Positions 968-38,405 of a stretch of 64,000 nt of DNA are shown in pieces. This DNA is from Halobacteriaceae archaeon (GTDB taxonomy: Archaea > Halobacteriota > Halobacteria > Halobacteriales > Halobacteriaceae). The notes beneath the pieces were generated by a model. That model saw only the letters and a list, made by a program, of their open reading frames with translations, was not told where the DNA came from and did no database searches. The position numbers were made by a program, and so were the translations under genes. Within the stretch, counting starts at the first letter, position 1. The number at the start of each line of letters is the position of its first letter. Where the stretch lies: the NCBI GenBank assembly GCA_042216675.1, contig JBDGTS010000020.1, positions 51,557-115,556 on the forward strand, given 5' to 3'.

Positions 968-2053
968 GTGACGGACGACGTACTGCGGCAGGGCCACGCC
1001 CAGACCCCCGCGGAAGCCGCCGCCGAACTCCGACAATTCCGCGAGTCGTGGGATTCGCTCGCGGAGTGGGAACGGCGGGCGGAGACGGTGCGCGCGGGCA
1101 TCCGCCGCGGCCTGAAGTTGCGCGACCCGCCCGAGAAGACGCCGCTCCGGCCCGAGCGCCACGACAGACGCGAGTACGACGGCTACGTCGTCGAGAACCT
1201 CGCCTTCGAGAGTGCGCCGGGATTCTACGTGACGGGGAGTCTCTACCGCCCCACCGACCACGACGGGTCGCTGGCCGGGATCCTCTGCCCCCACGGCCAC
1301 GGGGGGCGGTTCCTCGCCGAGCGACAGACGCGCTGTGCCGCCCTCGCGCGGATGGGCGCGACGGTGTTCCAGTACGACATGGTCGGCTACGGCGACTGGA
1401 GGGAGGCCGGCTGGGACCACGAGGAGACGCCCGAGGTGCTCCGCCTGCAGACGTGGAACAGCGTCCGCGCCCTCGACTTCCTGCAGTCGCTGTCGGCGGT
1501 GGACCCGGACCGAATCGGGATGACTGGCTGTTCCGGCGGCGGGACCCAGACGTTCCTCCTCGCGGCTCTCGACGACCGGGTGGCCGTCTCGGTGCCCGTC
1601 TGTCAGGTGTCGGCGCACTTCTTCGGTGGCTGTGCCTGCGAGAGCGGCATGCCAATCCACCGCGGCCCGGAGTACGTCACGAACAACGCAGAAATCGCGG
1701 CGCTCGCGGCCCCGCGGCCCCAACTCGTGATTTCCGACGGCGACGACTGGACGACGCACACGCCGGAGACGGAGTTCCCGTACATCGAGTCGGTCTACCG
1801 CGCGTACGGCGCCGCGGACGGAGTCGAGAACGTCCACCTCCCCGACGAGGGCCACGACTACGGGCCGTCGAAGCGCGCGGCGGCCTACCCGTTCCTCGCG
1901 ACCCATCTCGGCCTCGACGTCGACGCAGTGACGGACGCGGACGGCGAAATCGACGAGTCCTTCGTCACCACCGAGGACCGGGCCGACATGCTCGTCTTCG
2001 GCCCGGACAACCCCCGCCCGGACGACGCGGCGCCGCCGAACACCGCGCTGTAG
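968..2053 (+). CDS. Alpha/beta-hydrolase, acetylxylan esterase-like carbohydrate esterase
   Basis: Nucleophile elbow GCSGGG, CPHGH motif, C-terminal DW and GHDY (Asp/His) and no signal peptide. Confidence 0.8.
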
Positions 2054-2848
2054 TCAGTCCGGCAGGTCCTCGACGGCCACCGGCGTCGCGTCGGCGCGGT
2101 GCGCCTCGAACATCTCGACGGCCCACGCGCGCACCGTCTCGTCGTCGGACTCCACGACGGCAGGGCGAGTACCGTCCTCGTCGGAGAGCATCAACACCAC
2201 CGTCTCGTCGGCTATCATCAGGTCCACCGGCACCGCGCGGTCCGTACGGAAGTGCTCGCCCTGTCCGCTCGCGGCGATGTCGCGGAGCCACGCCCGCATC
2301 TCCGGGTCGGTGGCGATGGCCGAGAGCGAGCGCTCGGCGTGGACGACGGCGAAGGACTGCTCGGACTCGGAGACGGCCTCGCGGTGGTGGCGGATGGCCG
2401 CCGGCTTGGCCGTCCGAGAGAGGACGCGCACCGCGTCGGCGTCGGCCATCACCGACGCGTAGCGGCGCGCCGGGGCCGTCGGGTCGGCAGGGTCGGCCTC
2501 GGTGACCGTCGCGTCCGCGAACGCCCGGAAGTCCACGTCGATGGCGTCGGTGGGAAGCAGACCCAGAACATCGCGGAACCGCCGGCCCACGGCGGCGGAG
2601 TCCAGCAGTCGCGAGAGGTCCTCGGCGAGGAGGCGGCCCAGCGGCGTCACGCGGTAGGTGTCGCCGTCGCGGACCGCCCAGTTGCGGTCGGTGAAGTCGC
2701 CGAGGATGCGGCCGACGGTGACCCGCGAGGCGCCCGTCGCGTCCACGAGGTCGGTGCGCGTCCGCGGACCGTCGGCGAGTTCGCGCAGGACCGTGACGCG
2801 GTGGGCCGAGCGGGTGAGAAAGGCCACGTCCTCCAGCGAGTCGCTCAT
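2054..2848 (-). CDS. Winged-HTH transcriptional regulator (haloarchaeal ArsR/FilR1-middle-domain type)
   Basis: N-terminal FLTRSAHRVTVLREL...ASRVTVGRIL HTH and C-terminal VESDDETVRAWA motif typical of this family. Confidence 0.8.
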   Translation of the reverse strand: MSDSLEDVAFLTRSAHRVTVLRELADGPRTRTDLVDATGASRVTVGRILGDFTDRNWAVRDGDTYRVTPLGRLLAEDLSRLLDSAAVGRRFRDVLGLLPTDAIDVDFRAFADATVTEADPADPTAPARRYASVMADADAVRVLSRTAKPAAIRHHREAVSESEQSFAVVHAERSLSAIATDPEMRAWLRDIAASGQGEHFRTDRAVPVDLMIADETVVLMLSDEDGTRPAVVESDDETVRAWAVEMFEAHRADATPVAVEDLPD

Positions 2849-2885
2849 GGGCCCCGTTGCCGGAGATGGCGCTTCAGCCTTCCGC

Positions 2886-3815
2886 TCACGCCACCTGCGT
2901 CAGCGCCACCCCGGCGACGATGGCGACGACCGCACCGAGGAGGCGCGGGGACCGAGGGGGCGCCCCGGCGGCGGCGTAGGTGGCGCCGACCACGAGCAGC
3001 GGGTAGGTGTAGACGAGGGGCAACACGACCACCACGTCGCCGAGTCGGAGCGCCGCGAACTGACCGAGCCACGCCGCCGCGACGAGGGCGCCCGCGACGA
3101 CGAACGGGACGAGCGCGCGGGGACGGGTCCACACCGCGCGGGCCGTCCGGCGGCGGGCGGGCGAGACGACTGCCGCGCCGGCGAACACGACGGCCGCAGT
3201 GGTCTGGGTGACGGCCGTCGCGACGAGCGGTCGGGGGAAGCCCGCGAGGCCCCAATCCACGACGACGTAGCCGACGCCGACGGCGAGTGCCGCCCCGACG
3301 GGGTATGCGAACGCCCGGGGGTCGGCGTCACCGAGGGCCGTGAGGACCGGGTCGTCCGCGTCCGGGCCGGCCGATTTGCCGACGAACTGCAGGAGGGCGC
3401 CCCCGCCGACGACGGCCAGCAAGCCAACGGCATCGCTCACCGGGAGCGGTGCGCCGAACGCGACGACGGCCAGCGCCACGGCCACGACGGGGTTCGCGGT
3501 GACGACGGCCGCGGAGACGGACGGCCCCACCCGGTCGATACCCGCGTAGTAGAGCAAGCGGAAGGCGGCGGGGTAGAGGACGCCCGCGGCGACGAAGGGA
3601 CGGAGGCGAGCGGGGTCGGCCGGGAGCGAGGCCCCCCGGACGAGCGCCACCCCCCAGAACGCGACGAGGCTGACGACGACGGAGACGAGGGCCGCCGCGA
3701 ACGCGGGGGCGTCGAGGTCCGACGCCCCGTCGAGGCCCCGCCCGACGACGAGTGCCTGCAGGCCGAAACAGCACGCGGTGAACAGCGAGAGCGCCACGAC
3801 GAGGTCAGCGGTCAT
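2886..3815 (-). CDS. EamA/DMT family transporter
   Basis: About 10 hydrophobic segments in two repeats (GIDRVGPS...NPVVA; ALRLGDVVVV...YPLL). Start re-called at ATG 3815. Confidence 0.8.
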   Translation of the reverse strand: MTADLVVALSLFTACCFGLQALVVGRGLDGASDLDAPAFAAALVSVVVSLVAFWGVALVRGASLPADPARLRPFVAAGVLYPAAFRLLYYAGIDRVGPSVSAAVVTANPVVAVALAVVAFGAPLPVSDAVGLLAVVGGGALLQFVGKSAGPDADDPVLTALGDADPRAFAYPVGAALAVGVGYVVVDWGLAGFPRPLVATAVTQTTAAVVFAGAAVVSPARRRTARAVWTRPRALVPFVVAGALVAAAWLGQFAALRLGDVVVVLPLVYTYPLLVVGATYAAAGAPPRSPRLLGAVVAIVAGVALTQVA

Positions 3816-4007: not shown

Positions 4008-4898
4008 ATGGAGACGCGACCACTGGGCGACACGGGCCACGACAGTTCAATCGTCACCTTCGGCGCCATCGCGCTCGATTCGCTGACGCAGGCGGACGCG
4101 AACGCGATGGTGGACGACGTCCTCGACGCCGGCGTCAACCACGTCGACGTGGCGCCGTCGTACGGCGACGCCGAACGGAAACTCGCGCCGAAACTCGCGG
4201 AGCGACGCGACGAGGTGTTTCTGGGCTGTAAGACACAGGAGCGCTCCTACTACGGCGCGTGGGGGTCGCTGGAACGCTCGCTGGACCGCCTCGGCGTCGA
4301 CAAAATCGACCTGTACCAGTTCCACGCCGTCACGCGCTACGACCAACTCGACGCCATCACGGGCGACGCGACGCGCGACCGCGGCGAGGGGGACCACGGC
4401 GGCGCCCTCGCGGCGTTCAAAGAGGCACAGGAGGAGGGCCTCATCGACCACGTCGGCCTGACGAGCCACGGCGACCCGAGCGTCATCCGGAGCGCGATGG
4501 ACCGCATCCCCGAACTGGAGACGGTGATGTTTCCGTTCAACGCGACGCTGGACGCGAAGGAAGGGCCGGAACACGACTACCGCGCGGTCCTGGACGACGC
4601 ACGGGAGCGGGGACTGGGCACACTCTGTATCAAGGCCTTCGCGAAGGGGCCGTGGCCGGAGGACGGCGAGCGGCCCTACGCGACGTGGTACGAACCGTAC
4701 GACGACCCCGACGACTTAGCGGAGTGCCTGCGCTACGCCCTCTCGCAGGGGATGACCTCGATTCCGAACGCGGGGGACCCGGCCCTCGTGGCGCCGATTC
4801 TGGAGGCGGCGAACCGCTTCGAGGAACTCCCCGCGGACGAGCAAGCGGCCGTGCGCGCCGACAGGGAGGACGACGACTCGCCGGTGCCCTCGCCCTGA
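4008..4898 (+). CDS. Aldo/keto reductase
   Basis: METRPLGDTG start, DVAPSYG, SLERSLDRLGVDKIDLYQFH and GLIDHVG motifs. Start re-called at ATG 4008. Confidence 0.9.
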   Translation: METRPLGDTGHDSSIVTFGAIALDSLTQADANAMVDDVLDAGVNHVDVAPSYGDAERKLAPKLAERRDEVFLGCKTQERSYYGAWGSLERSLDRLGVDKIDLYQFHAVTRYDQLDAITGDATRDRGEGDHGGALAAFKEAQEEGLIDHVGLTSHGDPSVIRSAMDRIPELETVMFPFNATLDAKEGPEHDYRAVLDDARERGLGTLCIKAFAKGPWPEDGERPYATWYEPYDDPDDLAECLRYALSQGMTSIPNAGDPALVAPILEAANRFEELPADEQAAVRADREDDDSPVPSP

Positions 4899-5202: not shown

Positions 5203-6729
5203 ATGAACTCATCCGGCGGCGATTTCGAGAGGGGGGCACCGGAGAGTGGCGACGCGTTCCGGCGAGCGGTCGGCGATACCGTCGAGCACGCTCGGACGGT
5301 GATCGAGGACGGTCCCCACGACGCCACGTGGGACTCCCTTGAGACACACGAGGCGGCACCGGAGTGGTTCCGAGACGCCAAGTTCGGTGTGTACTGCCAC
5401 TGGGGGCTCTATTCCGTCCCCGCATTCGAGAGCGAGTGGTATCCGCGCTTCATGTACGACGCCGATCACGAGATTCACGACCGCCGTAGTCTGGACAACG
5501 ACGTCTTCGGGCATCACGTCGAGACCTACGGTCCGCCCGACGAAGCGCCCTATCAGGACTTCGCCGAGGACTTCACGGCGGAGAACTTCGACGCCGAGAC
5601 GTGGGCAGACCTCTTCGACGAGATCGGTGCGCGGTTCGCCGGTCCGGTCGCGGAACACCACGACGGCTGGTCGAACTGGGAGTCGGAACTCAATCCGTGG
5701 AACGCCGGCGACCATGGCCCGCACCGGGACCTGGTCGGTGCGTTGGAGACTGCTGTCCGGGACCGCGGACTGCGGTTCATGACCTCGTTTCACCACGAAC
5801 GAACGCGGGACCACTTTCAGGCAGCGTACGAGCATTACCCGTCTGTCATGGCTGAGTACCCGGACGAGGTCATGTACGGAAACCTCGACGACGACCTGTA
5901 CTTCGACTACTGGTTGGCCCGTCTAGTGGAAGTCATCGACGAGTACGCGCCGGATTTGATCTGGCACGACGCGGGGTTAGAGAAGATTCCGGAGAGCCAT
6001 CACCGCCAGTACCTCGCGTACTACTTCAACCGGTCAATACAGTCCGACCAGGAGGCCGTCGTCACCGCAAAGAACGAGGACTTGCCTCTCGGCGTCGCCG
6101 TGGAGGACTTCGAGCGTGGCCGACCCGCCGAACAACGCGACCGCCCGTGGCTCACGGACACCTCCATCACGACGAACGGGTGGGCCTATCTCGAAGACCA
6201 GTCTCTGAAGACGCCGCGGACGATCGTACACGAGCTGATCGACATCGTCAGCAAGAACGGCTGTCTCCTCCTGAACTTCGCGCCCAGACCGGACGGGACT
6301 ATCCCCGAGTCACAGAAAGATGTGTTGCGCGACGTCGGCGCGTGGCTGGACACGCACGGTGAGGCAATTTACGGGACGCGGCCCTGGACGACCTTCGGCG
6401 AGGGACCGACGAACTTGGATGGCGGGGGACACTTCCTCGACGACGTGGAGTACACCGCCGCGGACGTCCGCTACACGCGGTCCAAGGATGCCGACACGCT
6501 GTACGCGATCGTGATGGGATGGCCGGCCGACGTGACCGTCAACCTCGATTCGGTCACCATCGACGATGGAGCGGACGGCGACGTGGGGCTCCTCGGGGGA
6601 CCGGACGAACTCGACTACGAGAGTGACCGGGAGAACGGGCTGTCGATTACCGTGCCAGACCTCGACGCCACCGCGCGGCCCAGCGACGTGGCCGTGGTCT
6701 TCAAACTCGCTGGGTTCGGCGTGGCCTAA
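5203..6729 (+). CDS. Alpha-L-fucosidase (GH29)
   Basis: WFRDAKFGVYCHWG, AEHHDG, PDLIWHD (nucleophile Asp), DFERG and VSKNGCLLLN motifs. Confidence 0.92.
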   Translation: MNSSGGDFERGAPESGDAFRRAVGDTVEHARTVIEDGPHDATWDSLETHEAAPEWFRDAKFGVYCHWGLYSVPAFESEWYPRFMYDADHEIHDRRSLDNDVFGHHVETYGPPDEAPYQDFAEDFTAENFDAETWADLFDEIGARFAGPVAEHHDGWSNWESELNPWNAGDHGPHRDLVGALETAVRDRGLRFMTSFHHERTRDHFQAAYEHYPSVMAEYPDEVMYGNLDDDLYFDYWLARLVEVIDEYAPDLIWHDAGLEKIPESHHRQYLAYYFNRSIQSDQEAVVTAKNEDLPLGVAVEDFERGRPAEQRDRPWLTDTSITTNGWAYLEDQSLKTPRTIVHELIDIVSKNGCLLLNFAPRPDGTIPESQKDVLRDVGAWLDTHGEAIYGTRPWTTFGEGPTNLDGGGHFLDDVEYTAADVRYTRSKDADTLYAIVMGWPADVTVNLDSVTIDDGADGDVGLLGGPDELDYESDRENGLSITVPDLDATARPSDVAVVFKLAGFGVA

Positions 6730-6931: not shown

Positions 6932-8401
6932 TCACTCGGAGCCGTACGGCCCGGCTCGGTCCGGCCACTCCTCGTGCGCTGGATTCTGCGCCGGGAACCG
7001 CGCGTCGACGTCATCTTGCCACTCGTGAAGCCGCCGTCGGAGGTCGTCGACCACCGCCGGGCGGTGGTCACTCAGGTCCCGCGCTTCCCGGACGTCCGCA
7101 CCGAGGTCGTACAGGGCTACGTCGTCAGTCTCGAAGAACTCGATGAGTTTCCAGTCCCCCGCGCGCACCGCCGCCGAGGGCGTTCCCCCCTGATTCCCGT
7201 AGTGTGGGTAGTGCCAGAAGACGGCGTCGCGGTCGAGGCCCACCGTGTCGTCTTCGAGCAACGGGCGAAGGCTCTCGCCGTCGATTGCTTGCCCCTCCGG
7301 GTTCGGAACGCCCGCCGCGTCGAGGACCGTCGGGTAAACGTCCGGACTGGTGACCGGCGTGTCCACCATCGCGGCACTCTCGCCCGCGTCTGTGACGCCC
7401 GGCCAGTGGACGATCATCGGCACGCGATTGCCACCCTCCACCATCCAGCCTTTCCCTTCGCTGAGCGGCCGGTTCGTCGTTGGGGACCCCTCTGACGTCG
7501 CCAGCCCCCCGTTGTCGGACGTGAAGATGACGACGGTGTCGTCGGCCTGTCCCGTTCGGTCGAGGGCGTCCAGCAGGCGACCGACGCACCTGTCGAGCGT
7601 CTCGACCATCGCGGCATAGACGGGGTCCGACTGGACGAGGCGGCGTCGTATCCGCTCCTCTCTCTTGCCTTCCGTCGGGAAGCGACCACCGAGTTCGAAC
7701 TCCTCGACCTCGTCGAGACCGAGCGCGCGTCGCTTTCGCTCGTACCGTTCGACGAGGTCGTCGGGCGCCTGGAGGGGCGTGTGAACGAGGTACGGGCTGT
7801 AGTTGAGGAAGAACGGGTCGTCGCTCTCGGCGTGGTCTTCGACGAGCGTCACGGCCTCGTCAGCGAGTCGGTGGGGCAGATAGGCGCCGTCATCGGCGCT
7901 CTCGTCGAGATTCGGGATCTCCCACGGTCGAAAGTAACCACCTTCCCCGGCCGGCATACCCCACTCGCAGCCGCCGACGTTGACGTCGAAGCCGTGGTCC
8001 TCGGGCCGACTGTCCTGCGACGCGCCGCCGAGGTGCCACTTCCCGACGTGATAACGCCTGTAACCGGCGTCGCTCAGTGTGGCCGCGAGCGTCGTCTCCT
8101 CGTGCGGGAGGTGGTCCGAGTACTCGGCGTCGACTAGTTTGCCCCGGGCCGGATGGGTCCGACCGTGGAAGTCGATCCAGTCGGTGACGCCGACCCGTCC
8201 CGGATAGTTCCCCGTCATGATGCTCGCACGGGTCGGTGAGCAGACCGGACACGACGCGTACGCGTCGGTGAAGCGCGTTCCGTCCCGGGCGAGTTGGTCG
8301 AGGTTCGGGGTCTCGTAAAATGGACTCCCGTAACAGCCCAGATCTCGCCAGCCGAGATCGTCCGCGGTGATACAGACCACGTTCGGCCGATTTGCGGCCA
8401 T
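6932..8401 (-). CDS. Sulfatase (S1, formylglycine-dependent, arylsulfatase-like)
   Basis: PNVVCITADDLG, CSPTRASIMTG (CxPxR), GKWHLG, SDNGG and GKG motifs. Start re-called at ATG 8401. Confidence 0.93.
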   Translation of the reverse strand: MAANRPNVVCITADDLGWRDLGCYGSPFYETPNLDQLARDGTRFTDAYASCPVCSPTRASIMTGNYPGRVGVTDWIDFHGRTHPARGKLVDAEYSDHLPHEETTLAATLSDAGYRRYHVGKWHLGGASQDSRPEDHGFDVNVGGCEWGMPAGEGGYFRPWEIPNLDESADDGAYLPHRLADEAVTLVEDHAESDDPFFLNYSPYLVHTPLQAPDDLVERYERKRRALGLDEVEEFELGGRFPTEGKREERIRRRLVQSDPVYAAMVETLDRCVGRLLDALDRTGQADDTVVIFTSDNGGLATSEGSPTTNRPLSEGKGWMVEGGNRVPMIVHWPGVTDAGESAAMVDTPVTSPDVYPTVLDAAGVPNPEGQAIDGESLRPLLEDDTVGLDRDAVFWHYPHYGNQGGTPSAAVRAGDWKLIEFFETDDVALYDLGADVREARDLSDHRPAVVDDLRRRLHEWQDDVDARFPAQNPAHEEWPDRAGPYGSE

Positions 8402-10937: not shown

Positions 10938-11747
10938 ATGGTCGGCACGACGCGGTACGATTTCGGCGGCGAATCGGCAATCGTGACGGGGTCGACGAAG
11001 GGTATCGGGCGAGGCATCGCGGAGACGCTCGTCGAACACGGGGCGAACGTTGCGGTGAACTCCCGAACGCCGGACGCAGTCGAGCGGACCGTCGAAGAAC
11101 TCGGCGACGACGCCGACGGGCAGGTGATCGGCGTCCCCGCAGACGTTGGCGACCCCGCGGGGGTCGAGAAGCTAGTCGGCGACGCCATCGACGCGTTCGG
11201 GGAGATCGACCTGCTGGTGAACAACGCGGCCATGTGGCCCCGCGAGGCGTCGATGATCGAGGCCGACCTCGACGACTGGGACCAGACGATGGCCGTGAAC
11301 GTCCGGTCGCAGTTCTACGCGTCCAAACTGGTCGCCGAGCACATGGTCGCGAACGAAATCGAGGGGAACGTTGTCAACATCACCAGCCAGACGGGCGACC
11401 GGCGCACCGGCCAGCGGGGGCTGTACGGCCTGTCGAACACGGCGGTCAACGGGCTCACCTGGCGGATGGCAGCCGACTACGCGGAGGAGGGGATTCGGGT
11501 CAACGCCGTGTCCACCGACGTCACGCGGACGTATCAGCTCCGGCACGAGGCCGAGATGATGGCCGACGCCGACGACGAAGACCGAACTCCGGACGAGATA
11601 CTGAACGACTGGGGGGCAAAACGGCCACTCGGTCGGCTCGGTGAGCCCGAGGACCTCGCGAACGCGGTCTGCTGGCTCGCCAGCGACAAGGCGGCGTACG
11701 TGGTCGGCACGATTCTCCGCGTGAGCGGCGGCGGGAATCTGATGTGA
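10938..11747 (+). CDS. Short-chain dehydrogenase/reductase (sugar dehydrogenase-like) with an atypical YxxxN active site
   Basis: TGSTKGIG, LVNNAA, IRVNAV and PLGRLGEPED motifs. The catalytic region reads YGLSN. Confidence 0.88.
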   Translation: MVGTTRYDFGGESAIVTGSTKGIGRGIAETLVEHGANVAVNSRTPDAVERTVEELGDDADGQVIGVPADVGDPAGVEKLVGDAIDAFGEIDLLVNNAAMWPREASMIEADLDDWDQTMAVNVRSQFYASKLVAEHMVANEIEGNVVNITSQTGDRRTGQRGLYGLSNTAVNGLTWRMAADYAEEGIRVNAVSTDVTRTYQLRHEAEMMADADDEDRTPDEILNDWGAKRPLGRLGEPEDLANAVCWLASDKAAYVVGTILRVSGGGNLM

Positions 11748-30663: not shown

Positions 30664-32913
30664 ATGACAGACGACACACCGGCGACAGACAGGACGAACG
30701 AATCGGACGGGCAACTACCGCTCTCGCGACGCGCGGCGCTGGCGCTGTTGGGGGCCGGCGGCGCGGCGGCCGCGGCGACGGGGCCGGCGGCGGCGACCCA
30801 CACAAACGGCGACGACGGCGCGCCGACGCGTCCGTGGAACCAGCACGTCGACGCACAGGACCACGACCTGACGAACGTCGCGTCGCTGGAGGCGGACCAC
30901 GCGTCGCTGGGGACTCTCGACGTAGACGTCACGTACACGTCGGCCCGCGAGGCCGACGTCATCGTCTGGAAGGACGACGACGGGACGTGGTACGCCGACG
31001 GGACGACCGAGCGGGTGGCGACGGGGTCGGACGTGCTGGCCGTCACGCAGGCCGCGGTGGACAGCCTCACGGACGGCCGCGACTGGCAGGAGAAAGTCCT
31101 CGTCGTCTCGCCCGGCACGGCGACGGGCGAGGTGAGCGCCATCTCGGTGCCGAGCTATACGGTCCTCGACATGCCGTACCGGGTCCACATCCCGACGGAC
31201 GTCGACGTCGACTACGTCGTGAACGCCACAGACGAGACTGACATCGCGATTCCGCGCCTCCACGTCACCGGCGCGCCGTTCATCCCCTGCCGACTGCAGG
31301 GCGTCCGGCGCACGACGGTCGGCGAGTTCCGCTACTACGCGGACCCGGACGCCGACACGGACGTGGGCCTGCGCATCGACGACTGGGGCGGCGAGGTCCA
31401 GTGTGAGGACGTACAGGTGGGCCGCGCGTACGTCGAGCACTCCGAGAACCACGGCGTCGAGACGGTCAACGTCCACCGGTTTCAGGCCGACCAGATCATC
31501 GGCAACGACACGGGCGGCACGGCCTGCTTGCTGAACCGAACGACGGACGCGACGGTCAACAGCGTCGTCGGGTACGAGACGGGGAGCAAGGAGGAGGCGT
31601 ACGCGACGTTCCGTCTCGCGAACGACAACCAGAACATCTCCGTCGGGCAGGTCGTCAGCCGCGGGGGCTTCCGGGGGCTGGCGATCATCACCGACGCCCA
31701 GCGGGTTTCCATCGGGGAAGTCGACATCGCGGAGCCAGAGTTGAGCGGCATCCAGATGGTCGACGCTGCAGACGTCACCATCGGCGGCGGCGTCATCCGC
31801 AACCCCGGCGACCACGGCGTCAACATCTACTCGCTGAACAACGAACCGCCGAACGAGAACATCAGCATCACGGACCTCCGCATCATCGACGACCGCGACG
31901 AGACGGAGATGGAGTACGCCATCAACGAGGGCGGAGAGTCCGCGAACAACCGCTTCGTGGACAACGACCTCGACCCCGGCACGCAGGGCGTCATCAACGT
32001 GGGCTCGGGGACGACCGTCGTGCGGGACAACACCGGCGGCGGCCTCGACGAGGGCAAGATGACGCTCACCGGCGGGGCGGCCCCGGCGGCGCGCGTCGAG
32101 GGCGTGACTGCCACCGGAAGTTCGGCGCTCGAAGCGCGAATCCAGCCGGTCCGGCCGCCGGAGACGGCCTTCGGGTTCGAGTCGCACTTCGAGTGGACCG
32201 GCGGGGAGTGGGACCTCGTCGTCGAGTGGACGACCGACCCGGGAACCGACGTCGACGCGACGTACATCGTCGACCGCGACCAGCCGAACCTCGCGGGCGT
32301 CGAGACGGGGCCGCCGTCGGAGTGGAACCCCGACGAGGTCGACGAGGAACCGGGCGCGGGCGTCATCGACGACTTCGAGGACGAGAACATCTCGGAGTAC
32401 GTCGGCGCGACCGGGGCCTACGAGGTGAACAGCGACGCGCCGGTGGCCGAAGGGTCCTACAGCCTCAAGAACACGGGCGGCGACGAGGCGCTCATCGGCT
32501 CCTTCGCGGGCCTCGACCGCTACCCGAGCGCGGGCGACACGTTCGCCGCGAAGGCCGCGAGCATCGACGACGCGGAGAACTTCGGGCTCCTGTTCGGCAT
32601 GCAGGACCTGTCGAACTTCTACTTCACGCGCTACTGGAAGGGCGGCCCGGACCTCCAGATCTGGCGCGTCGAGGACGGCAGCTACAGCGAACTCGCGAGC
32701 GTGGACGTGCCCGAGACCACCGTCGGCACCGTCTACGACTACGTCGTGGACTGGGCCGCCGACGGCACCATCACGCTCGAACTGCGCGAGACGGACGGCA
32801 CCGTCATCGGGACGACGACGGCACAAGACACGACGTTCACGGAGGGCGGCATCGGCACCCGTCGGTCGGGGATGCTGGACGACATCCGCATCACCGACGC
32901 CGGGAGCCAGTGA
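30664..32913 (+). CDS. Tat-secreted right-handed parallel beta-helix (pectin lyase-like) protein with a C-terminal ConA/LamG-like domain
   Basis: LSRRAALALLG Tat signal, repeated V/I-x-I-G-x-V and Asn-ladder beta-helix pattern, and a C-terminal IDDFED...GGIG...DDIRI domain. Confidence 0.72.
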   Translation: MTDDTPATDRTNESDGQLPLSRRAALALLGAGGAAAAATGPAAATHTNGDDGAPTRPWNQHVDAQDHDLTNVASLEADHASLGTLDVDVTYTSAREADVIVWKDDDGTWYADGTTERVATGSDVLAVTQAAVDSLTDGRDWQEKVLVVSPGTATGEVSAISVPSYTVLDMPYRVHIPTDVDVDYVVNATDETDIAIPRLHVTGAPFIPCRLQGVRRTTVGEFRYYADPDADTDVGLRIDDWGGEVQCEDVQVGRAYVEHSENHGVETVNVHRFQADQIIGNDTGGTACLLNRTTDATVNSVVGYETGSKEEAYATFRLANDNQNISVGQVVSRGGFRGLAIITDAQRVSIGEVDIAEPELSGIQMVDAADVTIGGGVIRNPGDHGVNIYSLNNEPPNENISITDLRIIDDRDETEMEYAINEGGESANNRFVDNDLDPGTQGVINVGSGTTVVRDNTGGGLDEGKMTLTGGAAPAARVEGVTATGSSALEARIQPVRPPETAFGFESHFEWTGGEWDLVVEWTTDPGTDVDATYIVDRDQPNLAGVETGPPSEWNPDEVDEEPGAGVIDDFEDENISEYVGATGAYEVNSDAPVAEGSYSLKNTGGDEALIGSFAGLDRYPSAGDTFAAKAASIDDAENFGLLFGMQDLSNFYFTRYWKGGPDLQIWRVEDGSYSELASVDVPETTVGTVYDYVVDWAADGTITLELRETDGTVIGTTTAQDTTFTEGGIGTRRSGMLDDIRITDAGSQ

Positions 32914-32958: not shown

Positions 32959-33498
32959 ATGAGCGACCTACAGGAGACGGCGGCGGACGTGGCCGACGAC
33001 CTCTCGAAGAGCGACGTCGTCGTCCGGACCCGACCGGCGGTCCACCGACAGGTGAAACGCCGCGTCGACGTGGAACACGTCACGCTGGACGCGGTGCGCG
33101 AGGGGTTCGCCGAGATGGGATGGACCTACGACCGGCATCTGTACTTCGACCCGGAGGCCGTCGCGGCGCGCGCGGCGGAACTGGCCGCGACGTACCGCGA
33201 GTCCGAGGGGCGTCTCGTGGTCAGCCACGACGAGGTGTGTGACCGGCTCCACGACTCGGAAGAGGAGGAGCGCCAACGGGTCTCGGGGTGGAACGGCGGC
33301 GACTTTCTGGACACGGTCGTCGACGCCTTCGCCGAGCGTGGCTGGCACACCGAGGTCCACGACCGACAGCGCGTCTACCAGTTCCCGCTGTACCGCGTGT
33401 TCGAGGAGAACCATCCGAACGGCCGGGGCGGGCGCTCGACGGCGGAACTGTTCGGCGACTACGTCTCCACGTCGATGGAGACGCTCGCCGAGGAGTGA
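32959..33498 (+). CDS. Hypothetical protein (179 aa) with an internal duplication
   Basis: Acidic haloarchaeal composition, TTTTAT upstream, and a repeated motif GFAEMGW / AFAERGW. Confidence 0.7.
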   Translation: MSDLQETAADVADDLSKSDVVVRTRPAVHRQVKRRVDVEHVTLDAVREGFAEMGWTYDRHLYFDPEAVAARAAELAATYRESEGRLVVSHDEVCDRLHDSEEEERQRVSGWNGGDFLDTVVDAFAERGWHTEVHDRQRVYQFPLYRVFEENHPNGRGGRSTAELFGDYVSTSMETLAEE

Positions 33499-35675: not shown

Positions 35676-35753
35676 GAGCGGAGTCGGGGCCGAAACCCGA
35701 CGCCGCCTTCCGCGGCGCGTAGTTTTATCCTCCCGGCTCCGCTTCGGTCGGTG

Positions 35754-38405
35754 ATGACGTCACGCAAGACGGACGGTCCCGACGGCGTTCCGGAGGCACC
35801 GCTCGACTGGCCGGCGGTGACGACGGCGACGAAACCGTGGACCCGGTGGTGGTGGCTCGGGGACGCCGTCGACGACGGCAATCTCGAACGGGAACTCTCC
35901 CGCCTCGACGAGGTAGGTATCGGCGGCGTCGAGGTGACGCCCATCTACGAGGTGGAGGGCGAGGAACACGTCTCGCTGGACTTCCTGAGCGAGGACTGGA
36001 TCGAACGCTTCGAGCACACCGTCGCCGAGGCCACGCGGCGCGGGATGGGCGTCGACGCCGTGCCCGGCACCGGGTGGCACTTCGGCGGCCCGAACGTCGA
36101 CTTCGAGGACTCGGCGATGAAGTTCGACGCCGAGACGACGCGCCTCGACGGCGACCCCTACGAGGCCGACTTCGACCCCGACCGACTCCAGACGGTGATG
36201 GCCTACAGCGAGGACGGCCGCTCGGTCGAACTGACCGAGGAGGTGGACGACGACGGGCAAATCGCGTGGCGCCCGGACGAGGGCGAGTGGTCCGTCGTCG
36301 CTATCGTCGGCGAGATGGGGCGGGACGTGAAACGGGCCGCGCCGGACCGTGAGGGGCCGATGGTGAGTCCGTTCTACCCGGCCGCGATGCGGCGCTACCT
36401 CGGCCGCTTCGACGCGGAGTTCGCCGAGTACGACGGCCCGCCGTTCCGGGGGACGTTCCACGACTCCTTCGAGTTTCAGGCCCACTGGTCGCCGCTCCTC
36501 CTCGACGCCTTCGAGGAGGACTGTGGCTACCGCCTGCAGGACCACCTGCCCGAACTGCTCGGGAACCACCCCGACGAGGAGCGAGTCGGGCGGGTGAAAG
36601 CCGACTACCGGCGCGTCCTCTCGGACCTCTATTCGGAGACGATTTCCGAGTGGCTCCGCTGGAACCACGAGGACGGCCGTCAGGCCCGGTTTCAGGCCCA
36701 CTGCGCGCCGGGCAACATCCTCGATTTGTACGCGCTGGCGGACATCCCCGAGACGGAGTTCATCGACGAGAAGCGCAACATCCTCGGGTCGAAGCTGTCC
36801 TCCTCGGCCGCGCACGTCACGGGGTCGCGGCGCGCCTCGGCGGAGACGGCGACGTGGCTCGACGAGCACTTCACCGTCTCGCTGGGGCAACTGAAGGAAC
36901 ACGTCGACGAACTGTTCCTCTCGGGCGTGAACCACGTCGTCTTCCACGGCACCGCGTACGCGCCCGACGACGCGCCGTGGCCGGGGTGGCTGTTCTACGC
37001 GGCGACGCAACTGAACCCACGGAACCCCATCTGGAAGGACCTGCCCGCGCTGACGGAGTACGTCACGCGGTGTCAGTCCGTCCTCCAGTCGGGCGACCCG
37101 GACGCCGACGTGCTCCTCTACTGGAACGTCGAGGACGTGTGGCACGCCGAGGACGGCTTCGCCGACAGGCTGAGCGTCTTACAGGAAGAGTGGTTCGAGT
37201 CCTACTCCTTCGGCCGCGTGGCGCGGTGGCTCTGGGAGCAAGGGTACAGCTTCGACTTCGTGTCCGACCGACAGTTGCAGGACGCGCGGGTCAAGGACGA
37301 GCGCATCGTCATGCCCGGCGGCGAGTACGAAACCGTCGTCGTCCCCGAGACGGCCCACGCACCGGTGGACACGGCAGCGGCGCTCCGAGACCTCGCGGAC
37401 GCGGGCGCGACGGTGGCCTTCGAGAGCGAGGTGCCCGACGACGTGCCCGGCCTCGGGAGCCTCGACGAGCGACGCGACCGCCTCGCGGCGGTTCGGGAGG
37501 ACATCGACCCCACCGACGGTGAGGCCGAGGTCGGCGACGGCCGAGTGCTCGTCGGCGACGTGCCGAACCTGCTTCCGCGCACGGACGCGCGCCGGGAAGC
37601 CCTCGTCGACGAGGGCCTGAAGTTCGTCCGTCGCACCTTCGACGGCGGCACGCACTACTTCCTCGTCAACACGGGTGAGAGCGCCGTCGAGGGCTGGGTG
37701 CCGCTGGCAGTCGACGCCGCCGACGTGGCGCGCTTCGACCCGATGTCCGGCGAGACGGCACCCGCCGCCGTCCGCGAGAGCGAGTCGGGCGTCGAGGTGT
37801 ACTGCCAACTCCACGCGGGCGACTCGGTGGTCCTGCGCGCGTTCGATGATGAGACGCTCGACGCCGAGCCACGGGGCTACTGGCACGAGAGCGACCCCAT
37901 CGAACTCGACGGCCCGTGGTCGGTGGAGTTCATCCGTGGCGGTCCGGAGCGTCCGCCGGGCGTCGAGATGGACGCCCTGCGCTCGTGGACCGAGGTGAGC
38001 GACATGCACGAGCGCTTCGCGGGCACCGCCCGCTACGAGACGACGTTCGACCGGCCCGAATCGGGCGAGGCGTGGTGGCTGGACCTCGGCGACGTGGCCG
38101 ACAGCGCGACGGTGTGGCTCAACGGCGAGGAACTCGGGACCGCGCTCCGCGCGCCGTTCCGGATTCCCGTCGACGAACTCGACGCCGAGGACAACACCCT
38201 CCACGTCGAGGTGACGAGTCGCGCTGCGAACCGCGTCCGCGACTTGGACCGCCGCGGCGTGGACTGGAAGCGCTTCGGCGACATCAACCTCGTCGGCCGG
38301 GACTACGAACCGTTCGACGCGTCCGACTGGGACGTGCGCCCGGCCGGACTGCTCGGCCCAGTGACACTCGTTCCCCGCGAGGCGTTCGCCCCCGGCGCGG
38401 ACTGA
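35754..38405 (+). CDS. Alpha-L-rhamnosidase (GH106) with a C-terminal sugar-binding domain
   Basis: KPWTRWWWLG, GIGGVEVTPIY, GTGWHFGGP, FHDSFE, QAH, DIPETE, SAETATWL, HGTAY and PAGLLGPV motifs. Confidence 0.88.
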   Translation: MTSRKTDGPDGVPEAPLDWPAVTTATKPWTRWWWLGDAVDDGNLERELSRLDEVGIGGVEVTPIYEVEGEEHVSLDFLSEDWIERFEHTVAEATRRGMGVDAVPGTGWHFGGPNVDFEDSAMKFDAETTRLDGDPYEADFDPDRLQTVMAYSEDGRSVELTEEVDDDGQIAWRPDEGEWSVVAIVGEMGRDVKRAAPDREGPMVSPFYPAAMRRYLGRFDAEFAEYDGPPFRGTFHDSFEFQAHWSPLLLDAFEEDCGYRLQDHLPELLGNHPDEERVGRVKADYRRVLSDLYSETISEWLRWNHEDGRQARFQAHCAPGNILDLYALADIPETEFIDEKRNILGSKLSSSAAHVTGSRRASAETATWLDEHFTVSLGQLKEHVDELFLSGVNHVVFHGTAYAPDDAPWPGWLFYAATQLNPRNPIWKDLPALTEYVTRCQSVLQSGDPDADVLLYWNVEDVWHAEDGFADRLSVLQEEWFESYSFGRVARWLWEQGYSFDFVSDRQLQDARVKDERIVMPGGEYETVVVPETAHAPVDTAAALRDLADAGATVAFESEVPDDVPGLGSLDERRDRLAAVREDIDPTDGEAEVGDGRVLVGDVPNLLPRTDARREALVDEGLKFVRRTFDGGTHYFLVNTGESAVEGWVPLAVDAADVARFDPMSGETAPAAVRESESGVEVYCQLHAGDSVVLRAFDDETLDAEPRGYWHESDPIELDGPWSVEFIRGGPERPPGVEMDALRSWTEVSDMHERFAGTARYETTFDRPESGEAWWLDLGDVADSATVWLNGEELGTALRAPFRIPVDELDAEDNTLHVEVTSRAANRVRDLDRRGVDWKRFGDINLVGRDYEPFDASDWDVRPAGLLGPVTLVPREAFAPGAD

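What the first reader, a model, noticed from the sequence alone, without database searches (positions are those of the whole stretch)
968..38405. Candidate archaeal polysaccharide utilisation locus for a sulfated, acetylated rhamnose/fucose/uronate glycan
Seen in one region: a Tat-secreted beta-helix protein, four Tat surface lipoproteins besides the ABC binding protein, and a peptide-class ABC importer. Also present are signal-less processing enzymes (GH106, GH29, GH43-like, PL11-like, sulfatase, esterase) and monomer catabolism (UxuA, mutarotase, SDR, lactonase-like, enolase-family, LUD). Known: this capture, import, intracellular debranching and catabolism logic mirrors bacterial PULs, and archaeal Opp/Dpp-class ABC systems often carry oligosaccharides. 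Inference: the substrate could be ulvan-like, rhamnogalacturonan-like or a microbial EPS. Such complete loci are poorly described in haloarchaea, and this is the best candidate for a new system in the window.
Basis: partly seen in the sequence, partly recalled or inferred. Interest (0 to 1): 0.8.

Follow-up and report, generated by a model that had tools for sequence, protein, structure and literature searches.

The report
Haloarchaeal glycan import-and-breakdown gene cluster
A salt-lake archaeon carries a 37-kb block of genes that looks built to cut, import and digest a rhamnose-, fucose- and uronic-acid-rich sulfated polysaccharide; it is a new example of a kind of locus already reported in these organisms.

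Summary
Window 968-38405 encodes a Tat-secreted beta-helix protein, five Tat lipoproteins (one is the ABC binding protein) and an Opp/Dpp-class ABC importer with a fused permease. It also encodes signal-less GH106, GH29, a sulfatase closest to subfamily S1_16, a PL11-like propeller, a GH43-like protein and an esterase. Deoxyhexose and uronate catabolic genes with LudBC complete the block.

Corrections:
- The esterase is a homologue of the uronate methyl-esterase BT1017, so "acetylated" has no support.
- The mutarotase gene is frameshifted.
- An extra GH29 fragment is present.

The block lies exactly between a pilB-like and a pilC-like gene. These two genes abut in 25 of 29 family loci examined. 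GH106 and the binding protein have no close relative in 55 family genomes.

One metagenome contig (L038) keeps the right half in the same order at 66-92% identity (lipoproteins 41-51%). The left half could not be tested there.

Beta-helix homologues in Natrinema, Haloferax and Halopiger plasmids sit in rhamnose/uronate loci. PUL-like loci and pectin gene sets in haloarchaea are already published. Verdict: a new member of a known kind, of moderate interest. The substrate is inferred, not shown.

The parts
968..2053 (+). BT1017-family carbohydrate (uronate methyl-) esterase homologue, no signal peptide
   Evidence: PDB 6GOC E 1.6e-73. Ser189/Asp260/His296 align with the BT1017 triad at the same spacing. 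About 70% identical to many PVC-bacterial proteins.
2054..2848 (-). Transcription regulator (HVO_A0261_N wHTH + FilR1 middle domain); membership in the locus is uncertain
   Evidence: Pfam E 8e-27 and 1.7e-17
2886..3815 (-). EamA-family membrane transporter; membership is uncertain
   Evidence: Pfam PF00892; start codon chosen
4008..4898 (+). Aldo/keto reductase (candidate sugar dehydrogenase)
   Evidence: PF00248 E 2e-24
5203..6729 (+). GH29 alpha-L-fucosidase / alpha-L-galactosidase-type enzyme, cytoplasmic
   Evidence: PF01120 E 1.4e-93; best PDB match 7LJJ, an exo-alpha-L-galactosidase, E 7e-93
6932..8401 (-). Cys-type S1 sulfatase, closest to subfamily S1_16, cytoplasmic
   Evidence: CSPTR motif. 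PDB 6UST E 3.4e-165 and 9FO1 (S1_16) E 1e-117. An FGE gene is present in the genome at C6.
8796..9746 (+). UxuA-type mannonate dehydratase
   Evidence: PF03786 E 1.5e-77; NCBIfam NF003027 at 202.7 bits against a cut-off of 191
9872..10756 (+). NAD-dependent epimerase/dehydratase-family oxidoreductase (candidate uronate or sugar dehydrogenase)
   Evidence: PF01370 E 1.4e-21
10938..11747 (+). SDR oxidoreductase
   Evidence: PF13561 E 9e-57
11841..14578 (-). LudB (LUD + 4Fe-4S + CCG fusion, 740 aa) and LudC (172 aa): NAD-independent L-lactate dehydrogenase pair
   Evidence: Pfam and NCBIfam. 64% identical to the pair in the Natrinema zhouii locus. The H. volcanii LudBC deletion impairs growth on rhamnose (PMC8305020, passage read).
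14838..15704 (-). Amidohydrolase_2 sugar lactonase
   Evidence: PF04909 E 1.5e-32; weak match to the L-fucono-1,5-lactonase model, E 4.7e-15, below cut-off
15736..16116 (-). RhaM-family mutarotase gene interrupted by a frameshift near 15890
   Evidence: The N-terminal 75 aa lie in one frame and the C-terminal part in another; compared with the C2 paralogue. The sequence is identical in contigs of two runs.
16220..17383 (-). Enolase-superfamily acid-sugar dehydratase
   Evidence: PF13378 E 5.6e-45; best PDB match 1RVK/4HCD E 1e-63
17848..18215 (+). Remnant of a second GH29 gene (N-terminal ~120 aa only)
   Evidence: PF01120 positions 13-134 of 345; local GC 0.61
18216..18650 (-). PCC/DUF296 protein, role unknown
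   Evidence: PF03479 E 1.7e-21
18650..19714 (-). GH43-like five-bladed-propeller glycosidase candidate, cytoplasmic
   Evidence: PF04616 below cut-off. Atlas neighbours are GH43-type clusters, TM 0.85. 92% identical over the part seen in L038.
20038..21300 (+). Tat lipoprotein with a PQQ_2 beta-propeller; absent from the syntenic contig L038
   Evidence: RR motif plus lipobox; PF13360; no match in L038
21360..22598 (+). PL11-like FG-GAP beta-propeller, cytoplasmic
   Evidence: The family profile hits YesX, YesW and 4CAG at E 5e-22 to 5e-20. 54 of 57 family members match PF21348. A 68% homologue lies beside an RG acetylesterase in Halomontanus rarus.
22632..24683 (-). Tat lipoprotein solute-binding protein, family 5 (Opp/Dpp class)
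   Evidence: PF00496 E 3.7e-30; RR motif plus lipobox
24792..27023 (-). Fused OppB+OppC-type ABC permease (743 aa)
   Evidence: Two BPD_transp_1 stretches; NCBIfam OppB-type models match residues 11-338 and OppC-type models residues 441-725. The gene is also fused in L038.
27506..29631 (-). Two ABC ATPases (OppF-like and OppD-like) with the oligo_HPY domain
   Evidence: Pfam and NCBIfam
29700..30512 (-). Conserved membrane protein of unknown function
   Evidence: No Pfam family. 66% identical in L038. A paralogue lies between sulfatase genes on C2.
30664..32913 (+). Tat-secreted right-handed beta-helix protein with a C-terminal lectin-like beta-sandwich: candidate extracellular depolymerase
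   Evidence: 71 homologues, many carrying PF13229 or Ricin domains. AF2 model pLDDT 81.5. Best structural match is the AlgE4 A-module, Z 37.4; the next matches (Z 27-32) include tailspike depolymerases, phi29 gp12, the NosD subunit, and PL6 and GH28 enzymes. The C-terminal domain resembles CBM66.
32959..33498 (+). Conserved acidic cytoplasmic protein of unknown function
   Evidence: No Pfam family; 79% identical in L038
33540..35487 (+). Three tandem paralogous ~200-aa Tat lipoproteins (33540-34145, 34188-34796, 34858-35487)
   Evidence: Alignment A4. One has a weak DUF4352 match. L038 has two copies. No full-length match in 300 class genomes.
35754..38405 (+). GH106 alpha-L-rhamnosidase (BT4145-like), cytoplasmic
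   Evidence: PF17132; NCBIfam NF049897 matches over its full length, 780.8 bits. 81% identical in L038.

Best explanation
The block is a PUL-like glycan utilisation cluster of the ABC-importer type used by archaea and Gram-positive bacteria.

Inferred sequence of events:
1. The Tat-secreted beta-helix enzyme, which carries its own lectin-like domain, cuts an acidic heteropolysaccharide outside the cell.
2. The surface lipoproteins hold the polymer or its fragments. These are the three small paralogues and perhaps the PQQ propeller.
3. The family-5 binding lipoprotein and the fused-permease Opp-type ABC system import oligosaccharides.
4. In the cytoplasm, exo-acting enzymes strip the oligosaccharides. 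GH106 removes terminal alpha-L-rhamnose. GH29 removes alpha-L-fucose or L-galactose. The sulfatase closest to S1_16 removes sulfate from a galacto-configured sugar. The BT1017-like esterase removes methyl esters from uronates. The PL11-like propeller and the GH43-like enzyme act on the remaining rhamnose-uronate and other linkages.
5. Deoxyhexoses are oxidised through the non-phosphorylative route (mutarotase, dehydrogenase, lactonase, enolase-type dehydratase, SDR) to pyruvate and L-lactate. LudBC oxidises the lactate. Uronates enter through UxuA and oxidoreductases.

Shown here: gene content, export signals, family memberships, conserved order of the right half, and recurrence of the beta-helix family in rhamnose/uronate loci.

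Inferred: every activity, the substrate, and co-regulation.

The most likely substrate class is a sulfated, partly methyl-esterified polysaccharide of rhamnose, fucose (or L-galactose) and uronate. It could be pectic (RG-like) or an algal or cyanobacterial exopolymer.
For: - Export signals are found only on the beta-helix protein and five lipoproteins. All GH, PL, sulfatase and esterase proteins lack them.
- An FGE gene that could mature the Cys-type sulfatase is in the genome.
- L038 keeps the order GH43-like, PL11-like, SBP, permease, two ATPases, membrane protein, beta-helix, u179, lipoproteins, GH106, pilC. Identity is 66-92%; the lipoproteins are at 41-51%.
- Beta-helix homologues at 43-46% identity lie within rhamnose/uronate/Lud loci in Natrinema zhouii, Haloferax gibbonsii and Halopiger xanaduensis plasmids. 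The H. gibbonsii locus also holds an Opp-type ABC system and a sulfatase.
- The PL11-like homologue in Halomontanus rarus lies beside an RG acetylesterase, GH78, GH43 and GH2.
- LudBC is linked to rhamnose growth in H. volcanii (PMC8305020, passage read).
- The same genome has a second pectin-type locus on C4: PL2, two PL22, GH28, GH78, a GH106-like protein, GH42, GH127 and an SBP_bac_5 protein.
- The nearest non-archaeal GH106 and esterase relatives with a source name are mostly Verrucomicrobiota and Planctomycetota, plus one Kiritimatiellae (GH106) and a few other phyla (esterase). Verrucomicrobiota are reported to consume sulfated methyl-pentose glycans (PMC8857213, title and abstract seen in the listing).
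Against: - No activity, ligand or expression data exist.
- Only the right half is shown to be conserved. An orthologue of the left-end esterase did not appear from the relative's 167-kb contig among the 120 best hits.
- Genes lie on both strands in ten or more transcription units.
- rhaM is frameshifted, and a GH29 remnant is present.
- The last pathway enzyme, the FAH-type diketo-hydrolase, is not in the locus. Copies lie on C2 and C28.
- No GH105 or GH88 gene is present to process lyase products.
- The best structural match of the beta-helix is an epimerase (AlgE4). Fold does not fix activity.
- One beta-helix homologue (Halomontanus rarus, 51% identity) is not in a glycan locus.
- The PQQ lipoprotein is missing from L038.
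Confidence: 0.6

Rival explanations
1. The block is a mosaic, not one system. Only the right half (GH43-like to GH106, about 19 kb) is a coherent import-and-trim unit. The left half is a set of independent sugar-acid and deoxyhexose catabolic modules. These are the esterase, regulator, EamA, AKR, GH29-sulfatase, UxuA, the oxidoreductases, LudBC, the lactonase and the enolase. They would have accreted at a rearrangement-prone spot between pilB and pilC.
For: - Synteny in L038 is documented only from the GH43-like gene rightwards.
- No esterase orthologue from the 167-kb contig is among the 120 best hits.
- The pilB|pilC junction holds unrelated gene sets in the nearest genera: 23.5 kb in G049, and at least 11 kb in G047 and G050.
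- Signs of decay lie at the seam between the halves: the rhaM frameshift, the GH29 remnant and a low-GC stretch at 16-18 kb.
- Gene orientation is mixed.
Against: - The left-half functions are exactly those needed for the sugars that the right-half enzymes would release: fucosidase, sulfatase, deoxyhexose route, lactate oxidation.
- The same combination of beta-helix, Lud, lactonase, enolase and UxuA is found together in Natrinema zhouii.
Confidence: 0.25
2. The secreted beta-helix protein and the lipoproteins act on the organism's own or its neighbours' cell-surface polymers. They would do epimerase- or lyase-type remodelling of an exopolysaccharide or biofilm matrix, perhaps linked to the adjacent pilus genes. 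They would not serve nutrient acquisition.
For: - The best structural match is the AlgE4 mannuronan C-5 epimerase A-module (Z 37.4, rmsd 2.1 over 323 residues). Alginate epimerase/lyase enzymes are also listed.
- The block is flanked by type-IV-pilus-like genes.
- The small lipoproteins have no full-length relative in 300 sampled class genomes.
Against: - The beta-helix gene is embedded among cytoplasmic exo-glycosidases, an importer and catabolic genes. Its homologues are too in 3 of 4 other contexts examined.
- No glycosyltransferase or polysaccharide export genes are in the block.
- In 25 of 29 family loci the pilus genes abut with nothing between them. The pilus neighbourhood is therefore secondary.
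Confidence: 0.1
3. The ABC system is a genuine peptide importer, and its position among glycan genes is coincidental.
For: All transporter components match Opp/Dpp/Nik-type models.
Against: - All NCBIfam peptide or nickel equivalog scores are far below their cut-offs. For example Opp4A scores 29.6 against 650 for the SBP.
- The transporter stays in the same place among glycan genes in L038.
- An Opp-type system sits in the analogous H. gibbonsii locus.
- Opp/Dpp-class oligosaccharide uptake in archaea is established knowledge (recalled, not checked in a paper here).
Confidence: 0.05

Closest known systems
Haloarchaeal PUL-like loci for glycosaminoglycans (Natronoarchaeum and Haloarcula H-hyl strains; Sorokin et al. 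2026, PMC13260240, passages read)
   Same: Regions of tens of kb combine a Tat-secreted depolymerase, an ABC oligosaccharide transporter, a sulfatase and cytoplasmic exo-glycosidases. They are interspersed with non-CAZyme genes and appear horizontally acquired.
   Different: - Those loci are on plasmids, are built around PL8/GH88/GH154, and were validated by growth on hyaluronate and chondroitin.
- This one is on a contig whose neighbouring genes are housekeeping (chromosome-like).
- It is built around a beta-helix protein, GH106, GH29, a PL11-like protein and a BT1017-like esterase.
- It belongs to an uncultured MAG and has no physiology.
Rhamnose/uronate clusters with beta-helix genes on megaplasmids of Natrinema zhouii, Haloferax gibbonsii and Halopiger xanaduensis (annotated records), and the H. 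volcanii rhc L-rhamnose pathway (Reinhardt et al. 2019, cited in PMC10838023 and PMC8305020; not read itself)
   Same: - Homologous secreted beta-helix protein, 43-46% identity.
- LudBC, 64% identical in N. zhouii.
- Amidohydrolase lactonase and enolase dehydratases.
- UxuA in N. zhouii.
- Opp-type ABC and a sulfatase in H. gibbonsii.
   Different: - Those loci use GH28, GH88, GH78 and PL22, an IclR regulator, and the rhcD+LLM pair.
- They lack GH106, GH29, the BT1017-like esterase, the GH43-like protein, the small lipoproteins, u179 and the membrane protein.
Bacteroides thetaiotaomicron pectin PULs (RG-I: BT4145 GH106; RG-II: BT0986 GH106 and the BT1017 methyl-esterase)
   Same: The closest characterised relatives of three enzymes come from these systems or from PL11 RG lyases. 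They are GH106, the esterase (PMC7939467) and the PL11-like propeller. That BT4145 belongs to the RG-I PUL is recalled, not checked here.
   Different: - There is no SusC/SusD pair and no periplasm; import is by an ABC system.
- A sulfatase is present, which pectin does not need.
- The GH106 score is below the BT4145 equivalog cut-off.
Gram-positive PULs / CAZyme gene clusters with ABC importers
   Same: Secreted depolymerase, lipoprotein binding protein, ABC importer, cytoplasmic exo-enzymes and a local regulator.
   Different: - Export is by the Tat pathway, as is usual in haloarchaea.
- The importer is Opp-class with a fused permease, rather than CUT1.
- The regulator is of the HVO_A0261/FilR1 type.

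Membership tests
Bacteroidota-type PUL (sensu stricto) | Adjacent SusC-like TonB-dependent transporter and SusD-like lipoprotein genes | tested here: not met
   No SusC, SusD or TonB-related Pfam family was found in any ORF of the window. The resemblance is in logic only.
ABC-type PUL-like cluster (Gram-positive / haloarchaeal sense) | Two or more CAZyme genes co-located with a transporter and a regulator | tested here: met
   GH106, GH29, the PL11-like and GH43-like proteins, the esterase, the sulfatase, the Opp-type ABC system and a wHTH regulator lie within 37 kb.
ABC-type PUL-like cluster (Gram-positive / haloarchaeal sense) | Co-induction of the genes by the target glycan | not testable with these tools
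   No RNA holder was listed. The organism is an uncultured MAG.
GH106 | Significant full-length match to the family model | tested here: met
   PF17132 scores 177.7 bits against a cut-off of 29. PDB GH106 structures 6Q2F and 5MQM match at E 2e-44 and 1e-34.
GH106, BT4145 equivalog (NF049897) | Score over the curated equivalog cut-off | tested here: not met
   780.8 bits against a cut-off of 1300. It is a family member, but the same specificity is not implied.
GH29 | Catalytic and C-terminal domains over the Pfam cut-offs | tested here: met
   PF01120 scores 314.5 bits and PF16757 47.1 bits.
S1 formylglycine sulfatase | C/S-x-P-x-R maturation motif and the sulfatase domain | tested here: met
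   CSPTR lies at residues 54-58 counted from the Met at 8401. PF00884 scores 196.8 bits. An FGE gene is in the genome.
Sulfatase subfamily S1_16 | SulfAtlas subfamily assignment | tested here: inconclusive
   The best solved relatives are 6UST (E 3.4e-165) and 9FO1 (E 1e-117), both called S1_16 (PMC11760155, passages read). SulfAtlas itself was not available.
PL11 rhamnogalacturonan lyase | Homology to the eight-bladed propeller catalytic domain | tested here: met
   The family profile against YesX, YesW and 4CAG gives E 5e-22 to 5e-20 over chain residues ~113-555. PF21348 scores 34.3 bits against a cut-off of 27, but over 93 of 490 positions.
PL11 rhamnogalacturonan lyase | Full PL11 architecture and conserved catalytic and Ca-binding residues | tested here: inconclusive
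   The protein has 412 aa against ~600 for YesW and YesX, and lacks their N-terminal ~110 residues. Catalytic residues were not examined.
BT1017-family methyl-esterase | Homology to the catalytic module with the Ser-Asp-His triad | tested here: met
   6GOC matches at E 1.6e-73 over chain residues 127-438. Ser (in GCSGGG), Asp and His are aligned with spacing +70 and +106, as for S282/D352/H388 (PMC7939467).
GH43 | Match over the Pfam gathering score | tested here: not met
   PF04616 scores 28.7 bits against a cut-off of 32.2. Only fold-level and language-model neighbours are GH43-type.
Opp/Dpp (PepT) ABC importer | Family-5 SBP, two permease domains, and two ATPases with the oligo_HPY domain | tested here: met
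   All substrate-specific equivalog cut-offs were missed.
Non-phosphorylative (diketo-hydrolase) deoxyhexose pathway | Mutarotase, dehydrogenase, lactonase, dehydratase, 2-keto-3-deoxy dehydrogenase and FAH-type hydrolase | tested here: inconclusive
   Candidates for five steps are in the locus, but rhaM is frameshifted. The FAH hydrolase is found only on C2 and C28. The enolase's best solved relative is Atu3453-type, not a rhamnonate dehydratase.
Haloarchaeal LudBC L-lactate dehydrogenase | A ~730-aa LUD+Fe-S+CCG fusion followed by a small LUD protein | tested here: met
   A 740-aa and a 172-aa gene overlap by 4 bases. This is the same architecture as HVO_1692/1693 described in PMC8305020.
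Tat lipoproteins | Twin-arginine motif followed by a hydrophobic stretch and a lipobox Cys | tested here: met
   Read directly in five N-termini. No predictor was run.

The most novel reading that the evidence does not exclude
The three tandem ~200-aa Tat lipoproteins found only in this lineage may be a new family of archaeal surface glycan-binding proteins. Together with the secreted beta-helix enzyme and the Opp-type importer they would form an archaeal counterpart of the Sus-like capture, cut and import machinery. The whole set would have been assembled partly from bacterial imports (GH106, esterase), whose named nearest relatives are mostly PVC bacteria. It would let a haloarchaeon feed on sulfated, methyl-esterified rhamnose/fucose/uronate polymers, a growth mode not yet obtained in culture for pectin-type substrates.
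Probability: 0.25. Interest if true: 0.65.

Novelty: new member of a known kind. Interest (0 to 1): 0.4.

Why it matters
Haloarchaea were long seen as consumers of simple substrates. Recent isolations show that they also degrade chitin, cellulose, mannan and glycosaminoglycans. Attempts to enrich pectin-degrading natronoarchaea had, as of 2025, given only marginal growth (PMC12343721, passages read).

This MAG encodes a complete-looking route for a rhamnose/fucose/uronate glycan, and a second pectin-type locus on another contig. It points to an uncultured salt-lake lineage that may fill that niche.

It also offers concrete targets: a beta-helix depolymerase, a binding protein, a salt-adapted GH106, a BT1017-type esterase and a sulfatase closest to S1_16. 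These could be used for enzyme assays and for designing enrichments.

The result also shows how such loci are built. Named nearest non-archaeal relatives of two enzymes are mostly PVC bacteria. Haloarchaeal transport and lactate modules sit beside them. The whole lies at a rearrangement-prone chromosomal site.

Tried and rejected
- The first genome-contig scan, with the beta-helix protein, gave no confirmed relative.
- The second scan, with the haloarchaeal GH106 alignment, kept 80 loci. All were bacterial at 48% identity or less, so it gave no archaeal context.
- The beta-helix protein found no solved structure by sequence.
- The AF2 model of a small lipoprotein, from a 5-sequence alignment, had pLDDT 50. 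It was too poor for a fold search, so none was run.
- The Pfam match of the small lipoproteins to DUF4352 is below the cut-off and seen in one paralogue only.
- No flanking direct or inverted repeats beyond chance lie at the block's two junctions. The longest match is 7 nt; shuffled sequences average 7.8.
- No integrase or transposase family was found in the block. The way the block arrived is therefore unknown.
- No RNA holder was listed for the stretch.
- Earlier-findings look-ups by place (near), by words and by sequence gave nothing.
- The ARAGORN tRNA-Glu call at 388-480 lies inside the pilB-like coding frame. It was taken as spurious.

Full report
**What is there**

The window has a high GC content (0.61-0.74). 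I picked ORFs by the GC3-GC2 contrast and scanned them against Pfam and NCBIfam.

Between 968 and 38405 lie about 30 genes. Coordinates and evidence for each are in the parts list. Three groups stand out.

1. Exported proteins
   - A 749-aa protein has a twin-arginine signal and no lipobox (30664).
   - Five proteins have a twin-arginine signal plus a lipobox Cys. They are a PQQ_2 propeller (20038), the family-5 solute-binding protein (24683, minus strand) and three tandem ~200-aa paralogues (33540, 34188, 34858).
2. An Opp/Dpp-class ABC importer with a fused OppB+OppC permease and two ATPases.
3. Proteins without signal peptides
   - Enzymes: GH106, GH29, a Cys-type sulfatase with CSPTR, a PL11-like propeller, a GH43-like protein and an alpha/beta-hydrolase esterase.
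   - Catabolic genes: UxuA, AKR, two Rossmann oxidoreductases, an Amidohydro_2 lactonase, RhaM, an enolase-family dehydratase and the LUD pair.

**Refinements of single genes**

- *Esterase.* Pfam hits only its nucleophile elbow. It matches the catalytic module of BT1017 (PDB 6GOC) at E 1.6e-73, with Ser, Asp and His aligned at the spacing of the published triad.
  - BT1017 is a uronate methyl-esterase of the RG-II system. It is active on methyl-GalA and methyl-GlcA, and inactive on acetylated RG-I and pNP-acetate (PMC7939467, passages read).
  - "Acetylated" therefore has no basis; "methyl-esterified uronate" fits better.
- *Sulfatase.* It matches 6UST at E 3.4e-165 and 9FO1 at E 1e-117. Both are described as subfamily S1_16, acting on sulfated Gal or GalNAc (PMC11760155, passages read). 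An FGE gene is in the genome on C6.
- *GH29.* Its best solved relatives are an exo-alpha-L-galactosidase (7LJJ) and fucosidases.
- *GH106.* It matches the BT4145 model over its full length but below the equivalog cut-off: 780.8 bits against 1300.
- *Propeller at 21360.* It has 1401 relatives at E<=0.001 in the representative library.
  - A profile of 57 of them hits the PL11 structures YesX, YesW and 4CAG at E 5e-22 to 5e-20.
  - 54 of the 57 match PF21348.
  - It is PL11-related but shorter, and its catalytic residues were not checked.
- *GH43-like protein.* It is below the Pfam cut-off. Atlas neighbours are GH43-type clusters, including ones fused to GH29 or to sulfatase domains. This is a lead only.
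- *Enolase.* Its best solved relative is the 1RVK/4HCD protein (E 1e-63). From memory this is a galactarate dehydratase; I did not check that.
- *LUD pair.* It has the architecture of H. volcanii LudBC, whose deletion impairs growth on rhamnose (PMC8305020, passage read).

**The secreted protein**

It has 71 homologues.
- All those that carry a source name are from haloarchaea, and many are annotated as right-handed beta-helix proteins.
- Several have Ricin-type lectin domains, and a few a weak GH28 hit.
- The own genome holds at least four further paralogues, on C1, C2, C4 and C29.

The AF2 model (pLDDT 81.5) has a beta-helix at residues 95-543 and a C-terminal beta-sandwich at 600-745.
- Against about 48,000 solved chains the best match is the AlgE4 mannuronan C-5 epimerase A-module (Z 37.4, rmsd 2.1, 323 residues).
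- About 5 Z units lower come phi29 gp12, phage tailspike depolymerases, K5 lyase, an alginate epimerase/lyase, the NosD subunit of an ABC transporter, and PL6 and GH28 enzymes.
- The C-terminal domain resembles CBM66 and galectins.

This supports a polysaccharide-active beta-helix enzyme with its own binding module, probably acting on a uronate polymer. Fold does not fix the reaction.

**Comparative evidence**

1. *Absence from relatives*
   - GH106 has no match at E<=1e-20 in the 55 other genomes of the family, 30 of which are of high quality.
   - It has none at E<=1e-30 in 400 other sampled class genomes (only the two best candidates per genome were scored there).
   - The binding protein has none at E<=1e-60 in the 55 family genomes.
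2. *Position between the pilus genes*
   - The block lies exactly between a pilB/ArlI-like ATPase (ending at 901) and a pilC/ArlJ-like gene (starting at 38521).
   - pilC orthologues occur in 45 of 55 family genomes.
   - In 25 of the 29 relatives' loci fetched, the ATPase gene abuts pilC.
   - The four exceptions are one truncated contig (L020) and the three nearest genera.
   - In G049 the two genes are 23.5 kb apart with unrelated content: cytochrome oxidase, amidase, GH51 and others. In G047 and G050 at least 11 kb of unrelated genes follow.
   - The junction is thus a variable spot in this sub-clade.
   - No flanking repeats or mobility genes were found.
3. *A close relative*
   - A metagenome contig (L038) carries, at 66-92% protein identity and in the same order: the GH43-like gene, the PL11-like gene, the SBP, the fused permease, both ATPases, the membrane protein, the beta-helix gene, u179, two small lipoproteins (41-51%), GH106, pilC (90%) and DUF7289.
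   - The PQQ lipoprotein gene is absent there.
   - The part of that contig to the left could not be read.
   - The esterase search listed no orthologue from a contig of that length among its 120 best hits.
4. *Annotated haloarchaeal plasmids*
   - Beta-helix homologues lie inside rhamnose/uronate loci in 3 of 4 contexts examined.
   - Natrinema zhouii: IclR, CUT1 ABC, Ricin, GH28, LudBC, FAH, lactonase, rhcD-type enolase + LLM, GH88, UxuA and a mutarotase.
   - Haloferax gibbonsii: rhc genes, GH88, SGNH hydrolase, Opp-type ABC, sulfatase and GH28.
   - Halopiger xanaduensis: GH78, GH28, PL22, GH43 and rhc genes.
   - The Halomontanus rarus homologue is the exception.
   - A 68% homologue of the PL11-like protein in H. 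rarus lies next to an RG acetylesterase, a Ricin protein, GH43, GH78 and GH2.
   - These loci share the beta-helix, LudBC, the lactonase, and in one case the ABC ATPases at 55-57%. They do not share GH106, GH29, the esterase, the GH43-like protein, u179, the membrane protein or the small lipoproteins.
5. *Affinities of GH106 and the esterase*
   - GH106 has 16 relatives at 62-81% identity. Two carry source names (a Halorhabdus MAG and a Halobacteriales MAG); the rest are unnamed, mostly from metagenome sources.
   - Below that there is a drop to 50% or less. Where those sequences carry a source name, they are Verrucomicrobiota or Planctomycetota, with one Kiritimatiellae.
   - No haloarchaeal plasmid has GH106: 22 records matched, all bacterial.
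   - The esterase is about 70% identical to a very large family. Its named members are mostly Planctomycetota and Verrucomicrobiota, with a few from other candidate phyla.
   - Both genes therefore look like bacterial imports.
6. *The small lipoproteins*
   - A profile of them hit 53 of 300 class genomes.
   - Almost all matches cover only the signal-peptide region. None covers more than about half of the 199 model positions.
7. *A second locus in the same genome*
   - Contig C4 carries a pectin-type locus.
   - Its genes are a beta-helix paralogue, GH51, GH2, a 1258-aa GH106-like protein, two PL22, SBP_bac_5, a GH43-like paralogue, GH42, PL2 (E 1e-141), GH28, GH78, enolases, LudB, GH3 and GH127.
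   - Further sulfatases and GH29 genes lie on other contigs.

**Signs of decay**

- rhaM is split by a frameshift near 15890, next to a run of five G.
- 17848-18215 is a GH29 N-terminal remnant in a low-GC stretch.
- Contigs from two salt-lake metagenome runs of one study cover 15500-18700 without any difference. X1 may be the source of this DNA; X2 is a second sample.
- These features are therefore not one-off assembly errors. Contigs can still hide rare variants.

**How it most likely works**

The mechanism is set out under Best explanation. Inferences rest on the family knowledge named above. Two gaps stand out:
- The final FAH-type hydrolase is encoded elsewhere, on C2 next to another mutarotase and enolase, and on C28.
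- No GH105 or GH88 gene is present. If the beta-helix or the PL11-like protein is a lyase, the handling of unsaturated uronates is unexplained.

The substrate class is a sulfated, partly methyl-esterified polymer of rhamnose, fucose (or L-galactose) and uronate. The evidence does not separate pectic RG-type material from algal or cyanobacterial exopolymers.

**Comparison with what is known, and novelty**

- The block is not a PUL in the SusC/SusD sense.
- It works like the ABC-type PULs of Gram-positive bacteria and like the PUL-like loci just described in GAG-degrading haloarchaea (PMC13260240).
- Pectin and RG gene sets in haloarchaeal genomes were noted in 2011 (PMC3102087).
- The rhamnose pathway and LudBC are known (Reinhardt et al. 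2019, as cited in PMC10838023 and PMC8305020).
- My literature searches found no description of a haloarchaeal locus combining GH106, GH29, a BT1017-type esterase and a PL11-like protein. They found none of the small lipoprotein family either. These searches cover only the held library.

I therefore rate it a new member of a known kind, with interest 0.4. The bolder reading, a new family of surface glycan-binding lipoproteins in an archaeal Sus-like apparatus, is not excluded. I put it at about 0.25.

Noticed in passing
window 2-901 and 38521-42580 (with G000:C3:50304-52457): A type-IV-pilus-like operon is split by the 37-kb block. The operon holds a PilB/ArlI-like ATPase, a PilC/ArlJ-like gene, and DUF7289, DUF7263 and DUF7262 pilin-like genes. 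ATPase and pilC abut in 25 of 29 family loci. In the nearest genera they are separated by other, unrelated gene sets.
   Followed up: yes
window 15736-16116 (-): The RhaM-family mutarotase gene carries a frameshift near 15890, beside a G5 run. The same sequence is in contigs of two metagenome runs.
   Followed up: yes
window 17848-18215 (+): An N-terminal remnant (~120 aa) of a second GH29 gene lies in the lowest-GC stretch of the block. It suggests a past rearrangement between the two halves of the locus.
   Followed up: partly
window 27134-27238 (+): A 34-codon ORF for a single-pass hydrophobic peptide lies in the 480-bp gap between the ABC ATPase and permease genes, on the opposite strand. 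It is conserved at the protein level in L038 (tblastx).
   Followed up: partly
G000:C4:23645-107792 (loci L136-L140): A second, pectin-type CAZyme region lies in the same genome. It holds PL2, two PL22, GH28, GH78, a 1258-aa GH106-like protein, GH2, GH42, GH51, GH3, GH127, SBP_bac_5, LudB, and beta-helix and GH43-like paralogues, interspersed with housekeeping genes.
   Followed up: partly
window 968-2053: The esterase is about 70% identical to thousands of bacterial proteins, unusually high for an archaeal-bacterial pair. Named ones are mostly Planctomycetota and Verrucomicrobiota, often annotated 'acetylxylan esterase' or 'dienelactone hydrolase'. The only strong characterised relative is the methyl-esterase BT1017, so those public names may be wrong.
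   Followed up: partly
window 24792-27023 (-): The OppB-like and OppC-like permease halves are fused into one 743-aa protein, here and in L038. They are separate genes in the analogous Haloferax gibbonsii locus.
   Followed up: no
window 388-480 (-): ARAGORN calls a 93-nt tRNA-Glu(CTC) inside the pilB-like coding frame. It is probably a false positive.
   Followed up: no
window 29700-30512 (-) and G000:C2:71926-72693: A conserved membrane protein with Cys motifs and no Pfam family lies divergent from the beta-helix gene. Its paralogue lies between two sulfatase genes on C2.
   Followed up: no
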